Origin: a virus
UHGV virus genome: UHGV-0862315
DNA: 11,037 nucleotides
Reading direction: 5' to 3' (one strand)
Of the stretch, positions 1-11,037 are shown piece after piece. Each line of letters opens with the position of its first letter. Position 1 is the stretch's first letter. The position numbers were made by a program, and so were the translations under genes. The notes below the pieces were generated by a model. It saw only the letters and a list, made by a program, of their open reading frames with translations. It did not search any database and was not told the origin of the DNA.

Positions 1-58
1 GCCCCATAGCATCGAGGCAGAGCAGGCGGTGATTGGTGGATTGCTTCTGGATGATGAC
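1..58 (+). repeat. 58-bp exact direct repeat; second copy at 1177-1234 inside the 5' end of the helicase gene
   Basis: Direct comparison: bases 1-58 match 1177-1234 exactly and diverge at base 59 (g versus a at 1235). Confidence 0.85.
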
Positions 59-91
59 GTTAACTTATTAGGCGAATTCTTCGAGGCCTGA
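2..91 (+). other. 3' end of an ORF entering from upstream (frame 2); ends ...PHSIEAEQAVIGGLLLDDDVNLLGEFFEA, stop TGA 89-91
   Basis: Open frame from the window edge to TGA at 89-91. The first 19 codons duplicate the helicase N-terminal peptide, then the frame diverges. Start not visible. Confidence 0.35.
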
Positions 92-125
92 TGTAGAAAG
101 ACTGGATCAATCCACAGGAGTAATT

Positions 126-287
126 ATGACAAAACGTCGTAAGAAATACCAGGAAAAAGAAGAGATTCGACACCCTGATTCACCTGAGGGATTAGTGGTA
201 GCCGCAGCAAATAACAGGGCGTTCGCAGAGCGCCTTGTTGGTGTTTACAGACTAGCCAAAGCAGGAGTGAAACATGGGCGTCGTTAA
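126..287 (+). CDS. small basic hypothetical protein (53 aa, MTKRRKKYQEKEEIRHPDSPEGL...)
   Basis: ATG at 126 preceded by GGAG (117-120); open to TAA 285-287. Below the ORF-track size cut-off. Sits immediately upstream of the initiator gene. Function unknown. Confidence 0.4.
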   Translation: MTKRRKKYQEKEEIRHPDSPEGLVVAAANNRAFAERLVGVYRLAKAGVKHGRR

Positions 288-336
288 GTTAGCTGATTAC
301 AGGCATAACCCTGTACAACATCAGGAGGCATCCAGT

Positions 337-1164
337 ATGGGGTATGTCTCTATACACCGCCAGTTTATGGACAGCAGGCTCTATAAGGACTCTCAGGCAG
401 TACATCTTTGGCTTCACTTAATCCTCAAGGCTAATCACGAATCTACTGTCGTCAATACGGATATTGGGCCGATAACTGTTGATCGCGGTCAGATGATAAC
501 TGGACGCCCGTCGCTGGTCAGAGAAACATTCATCCCCGACAACAAAGTTCGGAGCTTATTACGGACTTTTGAGTCGAAAGGGATGCTTAATATTTGCTCG
601 ATGGGGAAGAAATTTAGCCTGTTTACAATCGTTAAATATGACGATTTTCAGGCAAAAAATTGTCCAACGGTTGTCCAACAGTTGTCCAACGCAAACACCA
701 GTAATGGTGCGGCTCTCAGCGGAGATTGTCCAACGGTTGTCCAACGGTTGTCCATAAACAATAATATAAATAATATCTCTAATACTGACGTATTAGAGAG
801 TGCCACAGCAGACAAAAAGTCTGACAAGAAAAAACCTTCCGTCAGCTGTCAGGATGTTGTCGATGCTTACCACGAAATCCTTCCTGAAGCGCCAAGAATC
901 CGCGCACTGAATGACAAGCGTAAAAACCAGATCCGAACGTTCTGGCGCAAAGCCGGAGTGATAACCCGCCAGCTTGACGGGCATGGGTTCACGATGCAGG
1001 ACTGGAGAAATTATTTGAGCTACGTAGGCGAAAATTGCCGATGGATGTTCGAAGAGCGCCCAAACCATCAGCGCGGAACCGTCTGGCACAAAAAGGGATT
1101 TGATTTCCTGCTTAACGATAATACCTACCTGAAAGTTCGTGAGGGTGAACACGATGACCGATAA
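337..1164 (+). CDS. phage replication initiator / replisome organiser (lambda O-like, P22 gene 18-like); alternative upstream start at 274
   Basis: Track ORF 274-1164. ATG 337 has AGGAGG at 323-328; ATG 274 has AGGAG at 262-266. N-terminus MGYVSIHRQFMDSRLYKD resembles the start of a replisome-organiser domain (recalled, not searched). The central linker is encoded by origin iterons (protein repeat CPTVVQQLSN). Immediately followed by, and overlapping, a DnaB-like helicase gene. Confidence 0.8.
   Translation: MGYVSIHRQFMDSRLYKDSQAVHLWLHLILKANHESTVVNTDIGPITVDRGQMITGRPSLVRETFIPDNKVRSLLRTFESKGMLNICSMGKKFSLFTIVKYDDFQAKNCPTVVQQLSNANTSNGAALSGDCPTVVQRLSINNNINNISNTDVLESATADKKSDKKKPSVSCQDVVDAYHEILPEAPRIRALNDKRKNQIRTFWRKAGVITRQLDGHGFTMQDWRNYLSYVGENCRWMFEERPNHQRGTVWHKKGFDFLLNDNTYLKVREGEHDDR
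660..758 (+). repeat. origin iterons: six copies of an 11-bp unit (core TTGTCCAAC) in two clusters of three (660-692, 726-758) separated by 33 bp
   Basis: Seen directly: ttgtccaacgg / ttgtccaacag / ttgtccaacgc, then a 33-bp spacer, then ttgtccaacgg / ttgtccaacgg / ttgtccataaa. Period 11 bp, so units stay in helical phase and in reading frame. Confidence 0.8.
755..795 (+). other. AT-rich tract flanking the iterons (candidate DNA unwinding element of the origin)
   Basis: aaacaataatataaataatatctctaatactgacgtatt is very AT-rich and lies directly 3' of the iterons, the arrangement known for lambda ori inside gene O. Confidence 0.6.
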
Positions 1165-2590
1165 TTTTTATGCGCCGCCCCATAGCATCGAGGCAGAGCA
1201 GGCGGTGATTGGTGGATTGCTTCTGGATGATGACAGCAGTGAGCGCGTCCGGAAAGTTCTGGCGATGCTGAAGCCTGATTCATTTTACAGCCGACCACAC
1301 AAAATCCTTTTCGAAGAAATAACCAGAATGCACCGGGAGCAAAAGCCAGTAGATGGGCTGACGCTTTTCGATGAACTGGAGCGCAAATCGTTAACGGCGT
1401 CTGTTGGCGGTTTTGCTTATATCGCTGAGATCGCAAAGAACACGCCAAGCGCAGCAAACATCGTTGCCTATGCAATGCAGGTTCGTGAAACCGCAATGGA
1501 ACGCTACGCCATCAACCGCATGACTGAAGCGACGGAATTGCTCTATTCCCGCAACGGAATGACTGCAACACAGAAGTACGAAGCTATTCAGTCGATTTTC
1601 ACGCAACTGACAGACCATGCAAAAACCGGATCGCGTCGCGGCCTTCGCTCATTTGGTGAGGTCATGGAAGACTGGGTTAGCGACCTTGAGAAGCGATTTG
1701 ACCCGTCAGGCGAACAACGAGGAATGAGCACAGGGATCCCATCGCTGGACAGGATGCTGTCACCGAAAGGTCTGGTGAAAGGCTCTCTGTTTGTCATTGG
1801 CGCTCGCCCTAAGATGGGGAAAACGACGCTATACAGCCAGATGGCAATCAACTGCGCAGTGCATGAGAAAAAGCCAGCTCTGATGTTCAGCCTTGAAATG
1901 CCCGGTGACCAGATACTGGAAAAACTGGTAGGACAGAAGTCAGGTGTTAACCCGAATATTTTTTACCTTCCGGCGACAAATGACGCTGATGACGGCTATC
2001 AGGGTGATTACGATGGTGACTTCAATAGGGCGATCGAAACAGCCAATCGCTTGAGTGAAATCGACCTGCTTTACATCGACGACACGCCGGGATTATCTCT
2101 GGCTCAAATCGTCAGCGAAAGCCGTCGAATCAAGCGGGAAAAAGGATGTGTTGGCATGATTCTGGTCGATTACCTGACACTAATGACCGCTGAAAAGGCC
2201 GATCGCAACGACCTTGCATACGGCATGATCACCAAAGGACTGAAGAACCTTGCCAAAGAGCTTGATTGCGTTGTTGTGCTTCTGACACAGCTTAATCGCG
2301 CATTGGAAAGCCGAACCAATAAACGCCCATTACCAAGTGACTCGCGCGATACAGGGCAGATTGAACAGGATTGCGATTATTGGGTGGGGATCCATCGTGA
2401 AGGCGCTTTTGATGACAGTGTTCCACCTGGTGAAACCGAACTAATCCTTCGCCTCAATCGTCATGGCAATACCGGCACGGTGTATTGCATTCAGGCAAAT
2501 GGCGCTATTTATGACACAGACCAACAGTCTGCTGAAATGCGCCGACGTGAACGCGAGGAACCGCAGTCCAAGAAGAAAGGAGGATTCTGA
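1154..2590 (+). CDS. DnaB-family replicative helicase (P22 gene 12-like)
   Basis: Track ORF 1139-2590. Preferred start ATG 1154 with GAGGG at 1142-1146; GTG 1139 is possible. Overlaps the initiator stop (1162-1164). Recognisable motifs: N-terminal PHSIEAEQAVIGGLLLDD, Walker A GARPKMGKT, LLTQLNR. Confidence 0.9.
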   Translation: MTDNFYAPPHSIEAEQAVIGGLLLDDDSSERVRKVLAMLKPDSFYSRPHKILFEEITRMHREQKPVDGLTLFDELERKSLTASVGGFAYIAEIAKNTPSAANIVAYAMQVRETAMERYAINRMTEATELLYSRNGMTATQKYEAIQSIFTQLTDHAKTGSRRGLRSFGEVMEDWVSDLEKRFDPSGEQRGMSTGIPSLDRMLSPKGLVKGSLFVIGARPKMGKTTLYSQMAINCAVHEKKPALMFSLEMPGDQILEKLVGQKSGVNPNIFYLPATNDADDGYQGDYDGDFNRAIETANRLSEIDLLYIDDTPGLSLAQIVSESRRIKREKGCVGMILVDYLTLMTAEKADRNDLAYGMITKGLKNLAKELDCVVVLLTQLNRALESRTNKRPLPSDSRDTGQIEQDCDYWVGIHREGAFDDSVPPGETELILRLNRHGNTGTVYCIQANGAIYDTDQQSAEMRRREREEPQSKKKGGF

Positions 2591-2618
2591 TGACCATCTA
2601 CATCACTGAGCTTGTAAC

Positions 2619-3286: not shown

Positions 3287-3453
3287 TTGACCCAAATCGA
3301 AGTTACGAACAAGAAAGCGTCGAGCGGGCTTTAACGTGCGCTAACTGCGGTCAGAAACTGCATGTGCTGGAAGTTCACGTGTGCTCCGATTGCTGCGCAG
3401 AACTGATGAGCGATCCGAATAGCTCAATGTACGAGGAAGAAGACGATGAATGA
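3283..3453 (+). CDS. small CxxC...CxxC zinc-ribbon protein (56 aa), NinF-like (possibly NinD-like)
   Basis: GTG 3283 overlaps the previous stop (GTGA); open to TGA 3451-3453. Translation [56 protein letters not shown] has four Cys in a C4 pattern and an acidic tail. Below the ORF-track size cut-off. Confidence 0.6.
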
Positions 3454-4168
3454 GTTAATAAATGGCAATGCCATCAAAATGACAAGCATTGAAATCGCTG
3501 AGTTGGTGGGTAAGCGTCATGACAATGTGAAACGTACCATCGAAACGCTGGCTAAAAATGGTGTTATCCGGCTTCCTCAAATTGAGGTTTCCGAAAGAAT
3601 CAATAACTTAGGGTTCAATGTTCAGTACGAGCATTACGTCTTCGAGGGCGAACAAGGTAAGCGAGACAGTATTGTCGTTGTTGCCCAGTTGTCGCCAGAG
3701 TTCACCGCTCGCCTTGTTGACCGCTGGCGAGAGCTTGAAGAAGCTGCGGTTAATATCCCCAAAACGCTACCGGAAGCGTTGCGCCTTGCTGCCGATCTTG
3801 CTGAGCAGAAAATGCAACTGGAAAACCAGCTCGCAATTGTCGCACCTAAAGTTGAGTTTGCCGATCGCGTTGGCGAGGCCAGCGGAATTTTGATTGGAAA
3901 CTTTGCAAAGGTTGTTGGTATTGGTCAAAACAAACTGTTTGCGTGGATGCGTGATCACAAAATCCTTATTGCTTCAGGTTCCCGGCGCAATGTGCCAATG
4001 CAGGAATATATGGATCGCGGCTATTTCACAGTGAAAGAAACAGCGGTCAACACAAATCACGGAATACAGATATCGTTCACCACAAAAATCACCGGGCGCG
4101 GTCAACAGTGGCTGACCAGAAAGTTGCTCGATAACGGAATGCTGAAAGTAACAGGGGAGGCTGCTTAA
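3446..4168 (+). CDS. Rha-family phage regulatory protein with C-terminal KilA-C/antirepressor-like domain (240 aa)
   Basis: ATG 3446 with GAGGAAG RBS. N-terminal block SIEIAELVGKRHDNVKRTIETL is typical of the Rha N-domain; the C-terminal half looks KilA-C-like. Domain assignment is from memory of the families. Confidence 0.75.
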   Translation: MNELINGNAIKMTSIEIAELVGKRHDNVKRTIETLAKNGVIRLPQIEVSERINNLGFNVQYEHYVFEGEQGKRDSIVVVAQLSPEFTARLVDRWRELEEAAVNIPKTLPEALRLAADLAEQKMQLENQLAIVAPKVEFADRVGEASGILIGNFAKVVGIGQNKLFAWMRDHKILIASGSRRNVPMQEYMDRGYFTVKETAVNTNHGIQISFTTKITGRGQQWLTRKLLDNGMLKVTGEAA

Positions 4169-4817: not shown

Positions 4818-5002
4818 ACGCCACAATTCAAACGATACCAGAGCTTCTTATCCAGACACGAGGCAATCAGACCGAAGTGGCAAGGATGCTTTCCTGCGCA
4901 AGAGGAACAGTGCTCAAGTACAACCGAGACAGCAAAGGCGAGCGTCACGTAATAGTTAACGGCGTCCTGATGGTCAAACAGGGCAAGAGGGGAAGACGAT
5001 GA
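4814..5002 (+). CDS. ninH: NinH-like small DNA-binding protein (62 aa)
   Basis: ATG 4814 overlaps the rusA stop. GNQTEVARMLSCARGTVLKY is an HTH-like segment resembling lambda NinH (recalled). Confidence 0.7.
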   Translation: MNATIQTIPELLIQTRGNQTEVARMLSCARGTVLKYNRDSKGERHVIVNGVLMVKQGKRGRR

Positions 5003-5621
5003 GACTCGAAAGCGTAGCTAAATTTCATTCGCCAAAAAGCCCGATGATGAGCGACTCACCACGGGCTACGGCTTCTGACTCTCTTTCCGGTACTGATGTG
5101 ATGGCTGCTATGGGGATGGCGCAATCACAAGCCGGATTCGGCATGGCTGCATTCTGTGGTAAGCACGAACTCAGCCAGAACGACAAACAAAAGGCTATCA
5201 ACTATCTGATGCAATTTGCACACAAGGTATCGGGGAAATACCGTGGTGTGGCAAAGCTCGAAGGAAATACTAAGGCAAAGGTACTGCAAGTGCTCGCAAC
5301 ATTCGCTTATGCGGATTATTGCCGTAGTGCCGCGACGCCGGGCGCAAGATGCAGAGATTGCCACGGTACAGGCCGTGCGGTTGATATAGCAAAAACAGAG
5401 CAGTGGGGAGAGTTGTTGAGAAAGAGTGCGGAAGATGCAAAGGCGTCGGCTATTCAAGAATGCCTGCAAGCGCCGCATATCGCGCTGTAACGATGCTAAT
5501 CCCAAACCTTACCCAACCCACCTGGTCACGCACTGTTAAGCCGCTGTATGACGCTCTGGTGGTGCAATGCCACAAAGAAGAGTCAATCGCAGACAACATT
5601 TTGAATGCGGTCACACGTTAG
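4999..5621 (+). pseudogene. Q: late antiterminator Q (lambda Q-like), split by a 1-nt frame disruption in a G4 run at 5405-5408
   Basis: Track ORFs 4999-5490 (frame 1) and 5403-5621 (frame 0) together encode one Q-like protein. Adding one G at 5405-5408 yields a continuous 207-aa product (...TEQWGRVVEKECGRCKGVGYSRM...), the length of lambda Q. Lies immediately upstream of the PR'/qut region. Confidence 0.8.
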
Positions 5622-7890: not shown

Positions 7891-8031
7891 TCTGAATTTC
7901 ACAGCGCATCTCACGCGCATATTAACGAGAGCCTTTCAGTAAGCGAGCCTGAGAAATGCCGTTATAGGTGGCGACCTCTCTCGGGCGGCTTTTCTGTGAG
8001 ACAGGCTCACTTTCTAAAAGGTAAAGACGCT

Positions 8032-8556
8032 ATGAATAATCATTCAGTTATTCCAGCCTTCGACTTCCGAGAAATGGTGCAAGCCAAAAACGGAGAGGTC
8101 GTTACCACATCCAGAAAAATTGCCAAGTACTTCGGCAAGCGACACGGTGATGTTCTCAGGAAAATCGAGCAGGTTAAGGCTGATTGCTCGCGTGAGTTTA
8201 GCCAACGCAATTTTGCGTCGGCTGATTATATCGATGAGCAGGGCAAGGTTCGCCCGATGTACAGCCTGACGAAAGATGGCTGGATCATGGTTGTGATGGG
8301 GTTCACCGGGAAAGCTGCTGCGGCAATCAAGGAGAGCTATATCGCAGCATTCAACTGGATGGCAGAGCAACTGAGCCGCCGCATGGCAATTGGCGAAGAA
8401 ATGCAGCACCGCTACGCCATCAAAGAAACACGCTCAAAGCTGAAAGGTACGATCGGCAGTCGGTTAATGAACGAACGGAAGAAAGAGAAGCGTGTCCTGG
8501 CTGTCGAGCATGAATACATCTTGCAGGTGACGCAGCCCGAATTGCTGATTAATTGA
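8032..8556 (+). CDS. rha: Rha-family phage regulatory protein (174 aa)
   Basis: ATG 8032 with AAGG about 10 nt upstream (the track's alternative start is 7996). SRKIAKYFGKRHGDVLRKIEQ and MYSLTKDGWIMVVMGFTGKAA are Rha-domain-like. Position between lysis and terminase genes resembles P22 rha (recalled). Confidence 0.8.
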   Translation: MNNHSVIPAFDFREMVQAKNGEVVTTSRKIAKYFGKRHGDVLRKIEQVKADCSREFSQRNFASADYIDEQGKVRPMYSLTKDGWIMVVMGFTGKAAAAIKESYIAAFNWMAEQLSRRMAIGEEMQHRYAIKETRSKLKGTIGSRLMNERKKEKRVLAVEHEYILQVTQPELLIN

Positions 8557-9134: not shown

Positions 9135-9623
9135 ATGGCAGCACCAAAGGGCAACCGATTTTGGGAGGCCCGCAGTAGTCATGGGCGAAACCCTAAATTC
9201 GAATCGCCTGAGGCGCTGTGGGCTGCTTGTTGTGAATACTTCGAGTGGGCTGATGATAACCCGCTATGGGAGGGTAAGGTATTTTCATATCAGGGAGAAA
9301 TAATTAAGGCTAATGTCCCTAAGATGCGAGCCATGACTATTTCAGGATTGTGTACCTTCCTTGATATCACCAGGCAAACATGGGGAACCTTTCGGTCAAT
9401 GGAAGGTTTTTCTGACGTCACATCACGAGCGGAAGACATCATCTACGACCAGAAATTCTCTGGCGCAGCCGCTGACCTTCTCAACGCTAACATCATCGCC
9501 CGTGATTTGGGCCTCAAAGAGCAGTCGCAAGTTGAAGACGTGACACCTGATAAGGGAGATCGCGATAAGCGACGCTCTCGTATCAAGGAGCTATTCAACC
9601 GTGGAACTGGACGCGATTCTTGA
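9135..9623 (+). CDS. terminase small subunit (P22 gp3-like, 162 aa from ATG 9135; alternative start 9129)
   Basis: [38 protein letters not shown]... recognised as gp3-type small terminase (recalled); 162 aa from ATG 9135. The 3' end overlaps the large terminase start. Confidence 0.8.
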
Positions 9624-11037
9624 TAACCTGAGCGACGAAGAGCAAATCGAATTGCTCGAGCTACTCGAAGAAGAAGAGAACTACCGAAACACACACCTGC
9701 TATATGAATTTACGCCATACAACAAACAGCGTGAGTTCATCGACGCCGGACATGACTATCCAGAGCGATGTTTTATGGCTGGTAACCAGCTTGGTAAGTC
9801 ATTTACTGGTGCTGCCGAAGTCGCGTTTCACCTTACCGGGCGTTATCCGGGAACAAAAGGATATCCGGCTGATGGTAAATATGGCGGAGAGTGGAAAGGT
9901 AAGCGTTTCTATGAGCCTGTTGTTTTCTGGATTGGCGGCGAGACAAACGAGACGGTAACCAAAACGACTCAACGCATCCTGTGCGGTCGTATCGAAGAGA
10001 ATGATGAGCCTGGCTACGGTTCCATACCGAAAGAGGACATCATTAGCTGGAAGAAGTCTCCTTTCTTTCCGAATCTTGTTGATCACCTTCTGGTTAAGCA
10101 TCACACGGCTGATGGCGTTGAAGATGGCATTTCAATCTGCTACTTCAAACCATACTCGCAAGGCCGTGCTCGCTGGCAGGGTGACACAATCCACGGCGTG
10201 TGGTTTGACGAAGAGCCACCATACAGCATTTATGGCGAAGGTCTTACCCGTACCAACAAATACGGTCAATTCTCAATTCTGACGTTTACCCCGCTGATGG
10301 GGATGTCTGACGTTGTTACCAAGTTCCAGAAGAATCCCAGCAAGTCGCAGAAAGTGGTCAACATGACCATCTATGACGCTGAGCACTATACCGACGAGCA
10401 GAAAGAGCAAATCATCGCATCCTATCCAGAGCATGAGAGAGAGGCGCGTGCTCGCGGTATTCCTACGATGGGTAGTGGTCGAATCTTCCAGATACCGGAA
10501 GAGACGATTAAGTGTCAGCCGTTCGAGTGTCCTGATCACTTCTACGTAATTGGCGGGATGGATTTCGGATGGGATCACCCACAGGCGCAGGTTCAGCTTT
10601 GGTGGGATAAGGATGCAGACACAATCTACGTTTCACGCGTGTGGAAGGCGAAAGAAAAACAGCCGTTCAGGCGTGGGGAGCAGTTAAATCATGGGCGCAT
10701 AAAGTGCCAACCGCATGGCCTCATGACGGAAACCAGCACGAGAAGGGCGGCGGTGAGCAGCTTAAAGGGCAGTACGCGGAAGCTGGTTTTATGATGTTGC
10801 AGGAGCATGCGACATGGCCTGATGGCGGTAATGCTGTTGAGCCTGGCATCACTGAATTGCGCGACATGATGCTTGATGGTCGCTTCAAAGTATTCAACAC
10901 CTGTGAGCCATTCTTTGAGGAGTTTCGCCTCTATCACCGTGATGAAACGGGAAATCGTCAAGCTTAACGACGACGTGCTCTCCGCCGTTCGCTATGCATA
11001 CATGATGCGCCGCTTCGCCAAAATGATGCGCGACATC
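9601..11037 (+). pseudogene. terminase large subunit (P22 gp2-like), reading frame broken at about 10655 and restored at about 10945-10955; 3' end beyond the window
   Basis: GTG 9601 overlaps the small terminase 3' end. Frame 1 (9601 to about 10659) carries the ATPase part (AGNQLGKS); frame 0 (10641-10967) carries nuclease-domain-like motifs (AWPHDG...EKGGGEQ); frame 1 resumes at 10963 (LNDDVLSAVRYAYMMRRFAKMMRDI). Both disruptions fall in A runs. Confidence 0.8.

What the first reader, a model, noticed from the sequence alone, without database searches (positions are those of the whole stretch)
655..800. Replication origin embedded in the initiator gene: two triplets of 11-bp iterons plus an AT-rich tract
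Six TTGTCCAAC-core units at exact 11-bp periodicity form two clusters 33 bp apart, followed by a roughly 40-bp AT-rich stretch. The iterons also encode the repetitive linker of the initiator (CPTVVQQLSN twice), so DNA-level and protein-level constraints coincide. This is the classic lambdoid ori-within-O arrangement, here with a distinct iteron sequence that should define this replicon's specificity.
Basis: partly seen in the sequence, partly recalled or inferred. Interest (0 to 1): 0.45.

Follow-up and report, generated by a model that had tools for sequence, protein, structure and literature searches.

The report
Phage replication origin inside initiator gene
This is the replication origin already annotated, but never tested, in Sf6/HK620/L-type temperate phages: six 11-bp initiator-binding repeats, an easily melted AT-rich tract and a small palindrome, all lying inside the initiator protein's own gene, so it is an ordinary feature correctly recognised.

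Summary
Five exact TTGTCCAAC units and one TTGTCCATA unit sit at an exact 11-bp period in two triplets that start 66 bp apart. Next comes the least stable duplex of the whole 11-kb window (754-793).

The region is 98.7% identical to Shigella phage Sf6. The Sf6 record annotates exactly these bases as a putative origin, HK620 carries the equivalent feature, and the phage L paper describes six TGTCCAACGGA repeats as the likely origin.

Comparison of 246 related loci supports a DNA-level function:
- The 8-nt cores are almost invariant, while the 3-nt and 33-nt spacers vary freely.
- The 66-bp spacing never changes.
- Relatives keep the architecture with other cores (TTACCAGC, TGTCCAGC, GTGCCAAC and others).
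- The palindrome is kept through compensatory changes.
- Natural variants carry 3, 6 or 9 units.

Its N-terminal domain is homologous to SPP1 G38P, and it is followed by a DnaB-type helicase rather than a lambda P-type loader.

The parts
274..1164 (+). Initiator gene (296 aa). N-terminal origin-binding-type domain is about aa 20-127, a disordered linker of about aa 125-187 is encoded by the origin itself, and the C-terminal domain is aa 190-293.
   Evidence: phrog_345 'replication initiation O-like', E 2.5e-85. It is 98.7% identical at the DNA level to Sf6 gene 43. The N-domain matches SPP1 G38P at 28% identity, E 8e-13. The AF2 model gives pLDDT below 30 for 120-187 and 80-92 for 190-293.
660..692 (.). 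Iteron triplet 1: three 11-bp units (660-670, 671-681, 682-692) with 8-nt cores TGTCCAAC at 661-668, 672-679 and 683-690.
   Evidence: The cores are almost invariant in 35 unique type-A origins: 2 of 48 core columns vary, against 10 of 12 unit-spacer columns.
693..725 (.). 33-bp in-phase spacer between the triplets. Its sequence is free but its length is fixed.
   Evidence: 19 of 36 columns scored as inter-cluster (691-726, i.e. this 33-bp spacer plus three flanking bases) are polymorphic among type-A origins. The 66-bp triplet period is kept in all 246 loci.
726..758 (.). Iteron triplet 2: units 726-736, 737-747 and 748-758. Cores are at 727-734 and 738-745 (TGTCCAAC) and 749-756 (degenerate TGTCCATA, running into the AT tract).
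754..793 (.). AT-rich tract, the presumed DNA unwinding element. The strictly conserved part is 757-775.
   Evidence: It is the least stable 20-50-nt duplex in the whole window. 0 of 19 columns are polymorphic among type-A origins, including ENT47670 whose C-domain DNA differs by 35%. The tract is 78-95% A+T in all 246 relatives.
776..799 (.). Perfect inverted repeat TCTCTAATAC-TGAC-GTATTAGAGA (arms 776-785 and 790-799, 4-nt loop).
   Evidence: As a single-stranded DNA hairpin it has dG -7.5 kcal/mol, z -6.4. It is present in all 246 relatives, 17-20 nt after the sixth unit, with at least 8 different arm sequences. 8 of 10 pairs show double changes, 98.3% of cells are paired, and there are no one-sided changes. 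Lambda has an analogous inverted repeat after its AT tract.
1154..2590 (+). DnaB-type replicative helicase gene, overlapping the end of the initiator gene. It is the presumed partner of the initiator's C-terminal domain.
   Evidence: Pfam DnaB (E 4.9e-31) and DnaB_C (E 2.9e-60). The start is placed by homology to Sf6 gene 44.
126..287 (+). Small conserved ORF (53 aa) upstream of and overlapping the initiator gene (Sf6 gene 42 / P22 orf48 position). Function unknown.
   Evidence: phrog_1331, E 1.4e-37. Sf6 and phage L annotations.

Best explanation
The region 660-799 is the replication origin of a lambdoid/P22-like temperate phage of the Sf6/HK620/L replication type.

Inferred mechanism:
1. The initiator encoded by 274-1164 binds through its N-terminal domain to the six TGTCCAAC cores. 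The cores are spaced one helical turn apart in two triplets that are themselves in phase.
2. The resulting nucleoprotein complex distorts the DNA and melts the adjacent AT-rich tract (about 754-793).
3. The initiator's C-terminal domain brings in the phage's own DnaB-type helicase (1154-2590). After that, host primase and polymerase take over.
4. The conserved 10-bp palindrome at the far edge of the AT tract acts as a structural DNA element. This last step is the most speculative.

Shown here: the anatomy, its identity with annotated putative origins, DNA-level selective constraint, co-inheritance of iteron type with the N-domain, and homology of the N-domain to a proven origin-binding protein.

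Inferred only: binding, unwinding, helicase recruitment and the role of the palindrome.
For: Identity with annotated origins:
- The region is 98.7% identical to Sf6, whose record annotates rep_origin at 28385-28480, equal to window 659-754.
- HK620 annotates the equivalent feature.
- The phage L paper names six TGTCCAACGGA repeats in gene 18 as the likely origin and cites genetics showing that the replication region works only as a whole unit (PMC8022706).

DNA-level selection rather than protein-level selection:
- The 11-nt period is read in three frames.
- Polymorphic columns among type-A origins are 2 of 48 in cores against 29 of 48 in spacers, Fisher p 1.8e-9.
- Between the window and phage L the N-domain DNA differs at 34.7% of sites, yet 0 of 48 core sites differ, including 0 of 16 third-codon positions.
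- The encoded linker is predicted to be disordered.

Conserved architecture with different cores:
- All 246 loci have CCA in the same register in six units at offsets 0, 11, 22, 66, 77 and 88.
- Every N-domain cluster (at least 80% identity) carries a single core type, whereas identical C-domains occur with different cores.
- The HK022/HK620 to window mosaic joint lies right after the iterons.

Other origin features:
- The AT tract is the duplex-stability minimum of the window.
- The palindrome is kept by compensatory changes, and lambda has an analogue.
- The N-domain is homologous to SPP1 G38P (E 8e-13). G38P binds repeats of oriL inside its own gene, and that system has been reconstituted in vitro (PMC6316719).
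- The iteron array expands and contracts in 66-bp steps, giving 3, 6 or 9 units.
Against: No paper or database record that I found reports an experimental test (binding, unwinding or autonomous replication) for this iteron family. All annotations say 'putative' or 'likely'.

Co-inheritance of the N-domain and the iterons is also expected from physical linkage alone.

The N-domain fold could not be confirmed. AF2 gave pLDDT 30-50 for it, there was no Foldseek hit and no PDB relative.

No DnaA boxes or IHF consensus sites were found nearby. That is neutral for a lambda-like mechanism.

In this particular window the sequence upstream of position 71 is rearranged: a dnaB fragment replaces cII. Whether this copy is expressed and active is unknown.
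Confidence: 0.85

Rival explanations
1. The repeats are only a repetitive, flexible protein linker produced by slippage or duplication, and have no function as DNA.
For: The region encodes a near-duplicated 10-aa peptide in a segment predicted to be disordered. Copy number varies in 22-aa steps.
Against: The unit is 11 nt, not a multiple of 3, so the three copies in a triplet encode different residues. The cores are almost invariant, including synonymous positions, while the interleaved spacers change, often non-synonymously. Relatives change the core sequence coherently in all six units. The adjacent AT tract is invariant and is the stability minimum of the window.
Confidence: 0.03
2. The iterons are genuine initiator-binding sites, but they serve mainly for control (initiator titration, handcuffing, autoregulation or replicon incompatibility). 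Initiation itself would take place at another site in the genome, as with the second origin oriR of SPP1.
For: SPP1 G38P binds two distant regions, and binding at oriR is proposed to stall forks rather than to start replication (PMC6316719). Plasmid-borne lambda iterons inhibit rep-lambda phages (PMC3349717). Promoter-like hexamers overlap the iterons, but their number is not above chance: 4 found against 1.7 +/- 1.4 expected.
Against: No other copy of the core exists in the 11-kb window. The iterons are immediately followed by the strongest unwinding-prone tract and a conserved palindrome, which is the full lambda-type origin layout. Only 11 kb of the genome could be inspected.
Confidence: 0.07
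3. This concerns the palindrome 776-799 only. It would be an RNA-level signal, either an intrinsic terminator for leftward (antisense) transcription or an mRNA hairpin, rather than part of the origin.
For: The terminator scan flags it on the minus strand, as a stem followed by TATTATTTAT. The phage L record carries an automatically predicted minus-strand terminator at the same place.
Against: The stem has only 3 G-C pairs of 10. One terminator-like site in 1.3 kb matches the chance expectation of 1.1 +/- 1.0. Across 18 distinct sequences all 45 changed cells are double Watson-Crick changes with no G:U-type intermediates, which fits a symmetric DNA element better than an RNA stem. Its fixed position 17-20 nt after the last iteron in 246 loci, and the analogous inverted repeat in lambda's origin, tie it to the origin.
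Confidence: 0.1

Closest known systems
Putative origins annotated in Shigella phage Sf6 (AF547987, rep_origin 28385-28480) and Salmonella phage L / ST64T gene 18, and the equivalent HK620 feature
   Same: It is essentially the same element. The window is 98.7% identical to Sf6 over 2.5 kb. It has the same six TGTCCAAC units, the same spacing, the same AT tract and palindrome, and the same flanking genes.
   Different: There are only point differences in the 3-nt spacers, for example AGT against GTT at unit 3. HK620 and HK022 carry a different core (TTACCAGC) with a diverged N-domain but the same AT tract, palindrome and C-domain.
Bacteriophage lambda ori-lambda within gene O (four 18-19-bp iterons, about 40-bp AT-rich tract, inverted repeat; O and P proteins)
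   Same: The origin lies in the middle of the initiator gene at the junction of the N- and C-terminal domains (lambda codons about 117-145, here 129-161). The order is the same: iterons, AT-rich tract, then an inverted repeat with a 4-nt loop. The N-domain plus iterons behave as an exchangeable specificity module.
   Different: No protein similarity to O is detectable and there is no Pfam Phage_rep_O hit. The iterons here are 11-bp units in two triplets, not four units of about 19 bp with internal dyads. The partner is a DnaB-type helicase, not the P loader that captures host DnaB.
Bacillus phage SPP1 oriL within gene 38 and the replisome organiser G38P
   Same: The N-terminal domains are homologous (28% identity over 111 aa, E 8e-13). 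Direct repeats begin right after that domain inside the initiator's own gene, followed by an AT-rich unwinding element (PMC6316719). A DnaB-family phage helicase is part of the module.
   Different: The repeat sequences and layout differ. SPP1 has a separate helicase loader (G39P) and a second origin (oriR). The C-terminal domains are unrelated: SPP1 has Phg_2220_C, while this protein has a weak DUF7376 hit and phrog_24933.
Phage P22 gene 18 / gene 12 replication module
   Same: It has the same gene order and logic: an initiator containing an internal origin, followed by a DnaB-type helicase. Many database records label the window's genes 'gp18/gp12'.
   Different: According to PMC8022706, P22 gp18 is only 25% identical to the L-type protein, and P22 has four repeats of about 20 bp with a different sequence.

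Membership tests
Sf6/HK620/L-type phage origin (11-bp iterons inside the gp18-like initiator gene) | Six imperfect 11-bp repeats (TGTCCAACGGN in the Sf6/L subtype) in two groups in the middle of the initiator gene | tested here: met
   The coordinates coincide with the Sf6 rep_origin feature and with the description in PMC8022706.
Sf6/HK620/L-type phage origin (11-bp iterons inside the gp18-like initiator gene) | Initiator of the phrog_345 / Sf6 gp43 family, followed by an overlapping DnaB-type helicase gene | tested here: met
   phrog_345, E 2.5e-85. The protein is 99-100% identical to those of many IMG/VR contigs. The helicase domains are shown.
Sf6/HK620/L-type phage origin (11-bp iterons inside the gp18-like initiator gene) | Supports initiator-dependent replication | not testable with these tools
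   No experimental report was found. All annotations say 'putative'.
Lambda-type origin (ori-lambda / O / P) | Iterons, an AT-rich tract and an inverted repeat embedded mid-gene in the initiator gene | tested here: met
   Window. Lambda.
Lambda-type origin (ori-lambda / O / P) | Initiator belongs to the lambda O family (Pfam PF04492 Phage_rep_O) | tested here: not met
   Lambda O hits PF04492 at E 5.7e-36. The window protein and five relatives do not. BLASTP against lambda O gives nothing better than E 4.5.
Lambda-type origin (ori-lambda / O / P) | Partner is a P-type loader that recruits host DnaB | tested here: not met
   The downstream gene is itself a DnaB-type helicase, with Pfam DnaB and DnaB_C domains.
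SPP1 G38P-type replisome organiser with an internal origin (oriL) | N-terminal origin-binding domain homologous to G38P | tested here: met
   BLASTP E 8e-13 and 28% identity over aa 20-127. tblastn E 1e-5 against the whole phage collection. PHROG hits to DnaD-like/replisome-organiser families reach E 1e-22.
SPP1 G38P-type replisome organiser with an internal origin (oriL) | Pfam Phage_rep_org_N (PF09681) signature | tested here: inconclusive
   Only one of six family members gives a weak hit, E 0.2. SPP1 G38P itself shows no PF09681 hit at E <= 0.01.
SPP1 G38P-type replisome organiser with an internal origin (oriL) | Separate helicase loader (G39P-like) between the initiator and the helicase | tested here: not met
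   The initiator gene overlaps the helicase gene directly (1154-1164), so there is no room for a loader gene.

The most novel reading that the evidence does not exclude
The small palindrome at the far edge of the AT-rich tract would be an obligatory structural DNA element of initiator-embedded phage origins, for example a hairpin or cruciform that fixes the edge of the melted region or marks where the helicase is loaded. It is conserved in position and pairing, but not in sequence, in all 246 relatives. The changes are strictly Watson-Crick double changes that often alter amino acids. A counterpart exists in lambda, whose initiator shows no detectable sequence similarity. That pattern would point to convergent or very ancient conservation of a three-part origin grammar: iterons, unwinding element, hairpin.
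Probability: 0.3. Interest if true: 0.45.

Novelty: already known. Interest (0 to 1): 0.18.

Why it matters
The finding itself adds little. The element is already annotated as a putative origin in Sf6, and the equivalent feature is annotated in HK620. It is described as the likely origin in the phage L paper, and it occurs in hundreds of E. coli, Shigella and Salmonella prophages.

The follow-up has modest value:
- It gives the first family-wide in-silico support I am aware of that the 8-nt cores, the 66-bp phasing, the AT tract and a palindrome are under DNA-level selection.
- It shows that the module is built on a G38P-like initiator rather than a lambda-O-like one.
- It lists several natural iteron specificities (TGTCCAAC, TGTCCAGC, TTACCAGC, TTACCAAC, GTGCCAAC) and natural 3/6/9-unit variants. 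These are ready-made material for testing origin specificity and the minimal number of iterons.

Tried and rejected
Approaches that led nowhere:
- **Structure.** AlphaFold2 on a 13-sequence alignment gave a usable C-domain only. The N-domain had pLDDT 30-50. Foldseek against the PDB found nothing with E below 0.6.
- **PDB sequence searches.** Sequence or profile searches with the window protein, the family profile and lambda O found no solved relative.
- **Family libraries.** NCBIfam gave no hit. Pfam gave only a sub-threshold DUF7376 hit.
- **Literature search on the literal core sequence.** It returned only unrelated primer matches.
- **Plasmid collection.** The aim was to see whether the module occurs as a stand-alone replicon. 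Only one record of about 50 kb, of phage-genome size, carries most of it, so the search was uninformative.
- **RNA screens.** Rfam and tRNA scans found nothing in the window.
- **Host-factor sites.** No DnaA-box or IHF consensus was found within 1-1300.

Ideas considered and rejected:
- **Internal dyad symmetry of the iteron.** GTTGnnCAAC and CAACnGTTG, and the long cluster-to-cluster hairpin, are not functionally relevant. The flanking G/T positions are exactly the ones that vary (GGT, AGT, GTT, GGC, GGA, GAT), and phage L lacks the symmetry.
- **Promoter-like hexamers inside the iterons.** Their number is not above chance.

The unusual junction at window 58-71 was searched for in complete E. 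coli genomes (first 400 bases of the window), in the plasmid collection (first 2,600 bases), and as exact patterns in IMG/VR and in GTDB representative genomes. It was not found in any of them.

Full report
**1. The observation**

- TTGTCCAAC occurs without mismatch at 660, 671, 682, 726 and 737, and a degenerate copy TTGTCCATA at 748. No other exact copy exists on either strand of the 11,037-base window.
- From base composition the 8-mer TGTCCAAC is expected about 0.15 times per strand.
- Tandem Repeats Finder reports two arrays of period 11, and the repeat finder gives start-to-start spacings of 11, 11, 44, 11, 11.
- The two triplets therefore start 66 bp apart, which is six periods. In register they are separated by 33 bp (693-725).
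- Downstream, GC falls to 22-27% against 49% for the window.
- With nearest-neighbour energies, 754-793 is the least stable duplex of the whole window at every window size from 20 to 50 nt. For 30 nt it is -26.8 kcal/mol against a mean of -41.0 with sd 2.8.
- A perfect 10-bp inverted repeat with a 4-nt loop follows at 776-785/790-799.
- All of this lies in frame inside ORF 274-1164. Because 11 is not divisible by 3, a triplet of units (33 bp) is read in all three frames and gives CPTVVQQLSN, then CPTVVQRLSI 22 codons later.

**2. What it is**

- The ORF is a 296-aa 'replication initiation O-like' protein (phrog_345, E 2.5e-85).
- It is immediately followed by, and overlaps, a DnaB-type helicase gene (Pfam DnaB and DnaB_C).
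- The rest of the window is the ordinary right arm of a lambdoid/P22-like temperate phage: NinB, an antirepressor, a RusA-like resolvase, a Q-like antiterminator, holin, endolysin, spanin and terminase.
- The first 2.6 kb are 98.7% identical to Shigella phage Sf6. The Sf6 GenBank record annotates rep_origin 28385-28480 as 'putative; repeat region reminiscent of the phage lambda origin; similar to phage HK620'. In window coordinates that is 659-754.
- HK620 carries a two-piece rep_origin feature at the equivalent place.
- Phage L annotates a 'putative origin of replication' there as well.
[quoted passage not shown] It adds that genetics show the L and P22 replication regions can be exchanged only as whole units (PMC8022706).
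- The element is therefore already known as a prediction. I found no report of a direct experimental test.

**3. Evidence that the DNA, not the peptide, is under selection**

I collected 246 related loci from IMG/VR and GenBank phages in which the gene and a conserved KYD(D/E)(F/Y)Q motif could be located.

Among 35 distinct origins of the window's type, the polymorphic columns are distributed as follows:

| Region | Polymorphic columns |
|---|---|
| Iteron cores | 2 of 48 |
| 3-nt unit spacers | 10 of 12 |
| Inter-cluster spacer | 19 of 36 |
| AT tract | 0 of 19 |

- Cores against spacers gives Fisher p = 1.8e-9.
- Between the window and phage L the N-terminal domain DNA differs at 34.7% of sites (57.8% of third-codon positions). 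None of the 48 core positions differs, including 16 third-codon positions.
- The triplet-to-triplet distance is exactly 66 bp in all 246 loci, although in-frame indels of 3 nt would be tolerated by the reading frame.
- The AlphaFold2 model gives pLDDT below 30 for residues 120-187, the segment encoded by the origin. This fits a linker with little protein-level constraint.

**4. Relatives keep the grammar but change the words**

- Every relative has three plus three 11-bp units with CCA in the same register, then an A+T-rich stretch of 17-20 nt (78-95% A+T), then a perfect 9-10-bp inverted repeat with a 4-nt loop.
- The core differs between groups:
  - TGTCCAAC in the window, Sf6, L, ST-29 and Cronobacter ENT47670
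  - TGTCCAGC in a large IMG/VR group
  - TTACCAGC in HK022 and HK620
  - TTACCAAC in Pantoea PA-1
  - GTGCCAAC in Yersinia vB_YenM_30.14 and others
- Each cluster of N-terminal domains (at least 80% identity) carries one core type.
- Pairs with different cores never exceed 78% N-domain identity, yet they can have identical C-terminal domains.
- HK022 and HK620 have a diverged N-domain and a different core. From the AT tract rightwards they are essentially identical to the window, so the mosaic joint lies between the iterons and the palindrome.
- This is the pattern expected if the N-domain and the iterons form the specificity module and the C-domain goes with the helicase. Physical linkage alone would also produce co-inheritance, so this evidence is supportive rather than decisive.

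**5. The palindrome**

- Across 18 distinct sequences, 98.3% of cells pair and 8 of 10 pairs show changes on both sides.
- There are 45 double-change cells and no one-sided (G:T-type) change. Sliding the partner by 1-3 columns drops pairing to 29-46%.
- Several of these changes alter amino acids, for example TCA/GAG (Ser, Glu) in PA-1 against TTA/AAG (Leu, Lys) in the Yersinia phage.
- Arm sequence is shuffled relative to iteron type.
- Lambda has an analogous element: 12-nt arms, 92% complementary, 4-nt loop, directly after its AT-rich tract.
- A terminator scan flags the window's palindrome on the minus strand, and the phage L record carries such an automatic prediction.
- Against that reading, the stem is AT-rich and the number of such sites matches chance. 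The absence of wobble intermediates fits a symmetric DNA element better than an RNA stem.
- I regard a structural role in the origin as the most likely explanation, but it is unproven.

**6. Copy-number variation**

Homologous proteins occur in three lengths that differ by exactly 22 aa: 274/277, 296/299 and 318 aa. The DNA of representatives shows one, two or three triplets (3, 6 or 9 units) in an otherwise identical context. The 3-unit allele examined lies in Shigella flexneri 5 str. 8401, in a prophage carrying an IS4-family insertion, so it may be defective. For lambda, two iterons next to the AT tract suffice for unwinding and for in-vitro replication (work cited in PMC7466680).

**7. Which family?**

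In lambda the iterons occupy codons of about 117-145 of a 299-codon gene. Here they occupy 129-161 of 296.
- The protein is not a detectable lambda O homologue. BLASTP gives nothing better than E 4.5. Lambda O hits Pfam Phage_rep_O at 5.7e-36, while the window protein and five relatives do not.
- Instead, residues 20-127 align with residues 2-112 of the SPP1 replisome organiser G38P (28% identity, E 8e-13; tblastn E 1e-5 in the whole phage collection). They also match the N-terminal parts of 'DnaD-like helicase loader' PHROGs.
- SPP1 G38P binds direct repeats of oriL located inside gene 38, next to an AT-rich unwinding element, and that system has been reconstituted in vitro (PMC6316719). In the SPP1 sequence the repeats begin right after the homologous domain.
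- The best description is therefore an origin with the lambda layout, built on a G38P-like origin-binding domain and coupled directly to a phage DnaB-type helicase, with no P- or G39P-type loader gene.

**8. Mechanism, with status of each step**

- Shown: the anatomy, DNA-level constraint on the cores, phasing, AT tract and palindrome, modular inheritance, and homology of the N-domain to a proven origin binder.
- Inferred from the lambda and SPP1 paradigms:
  - Initiator molecules bind the six cores, which lie on roughly one face of the helix at about one turn apart.
  - The complex stresses and opens the adjacent AT tract.
  - The C-terminal domain recruits the phage helicase.
  - Host primase and DNA polymerase III complete the replisome.
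- Speculative: the palindrome stabilises or delimits the open region, or marks the helicase loading site.

**9. Verdict**

The feature is already known, so interest is low. The additional observations (compensatory palindrome, several iteron specificities, 3/6/9-unit alleles) are minor but usable leads.

Noticed in passing
window 1-70 (and 1177-1234): Window 1-58 is an exact copy of the 5' part of the DnaB-type helicase gene (1177-1234). It is fused in frame, through a unique 12-nt stretch GTTAACTTATTA (59-70), to the last 21 nt of the cII-like gene (71-91). In Sf6 and L this position holds the cII 3' end and the left arm of the oop-terminator hairpin, which is therefore missing here. The ori-containing module is thus bracketed by a 58-bp direct repeat 1176 bp apart, which could be a tandem duplication, another rearrangement or an assembly artefact. 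The junction was not found in complete E. coli genomes (query: window 1-400), the plasmid collection (query: window 1-2600), or by exact-pattern scans of IMG/VR and GTDB representative genomes.
   Followed up: partly
relatives L253/L254 (2888-3050) and L255/L256 (2888-2920); corresponds to window 660-758: Natural alleles of the same origin carry 9 units (three triplets, initiator 318 aa) or 3 units (one triplet, initiator 274 aa). The array changes in 66-bp / 22-aa steps. The 3-unit allele examined is in S. flexneri 8401, in a prophage with an IS4-family insertion next to cII.
   Followed up: yes
window 776-799 and the same position in 246 related loci: A perfect inverted repeat with a 4-nt loop is conserved in position and pairing but not in sequence. 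It has at least 8 arm variants, only Watson-Crick double changes, and some of those changes are non-synonymous. Lambda has an analogous inverted repeat after its AT tract.
   Followed up: yes
window about 757-775; HK620 AF335538 10464/10467; HK022 L085: A mosaic recombination joint lies between the iterons and the palindrome. HK620 and HK022 have a different N-domain and different iterons, but from the AT tract rightwards (C-domain, and in HK620 also the helicase) they are about 97-100% identical to the window.
   Followed up: partly
window 101-133: There is an exact copy of the 33-bp sequence ACTGGATCAATCCACAGGAGTAATTATGACAAA. It is conserved among lambdoid phages at the oop promoter and 5' end, and is annotated in Sf6 as boundary sequence bsq5. 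It overlaps the start of the small ORF 126-287.
   Followed up: no
window 4999-5490 and 9601-10794: The Q-like antiterminator ORF (163 aa) matches only positions 1-114 of a 253-position profile. The large-terminase ORF is 397 aa and matches only part of its profile. These genes may be truncated or frameshifted, which would suggest a defective prophage.
   Followed up: no
window 3446-4168 and 7996-8556: There are two Rha/antirepressor-type genes. One is in the nin region and the other lies between the lysis cassette and the terminase genes.
   Followed up: no
window 656-760: In the window's allele the unit junctions CAACGGTTG and CAACAGTTG are palindromic, so the two triplets can pair into a long single-strand hairpin (dG -26 kcal/mol, z -5.4). 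The symmetry depends on spacer bases that vary between close relatives and is absent in phage L, so it is probably incidental.
   Followed up: yes
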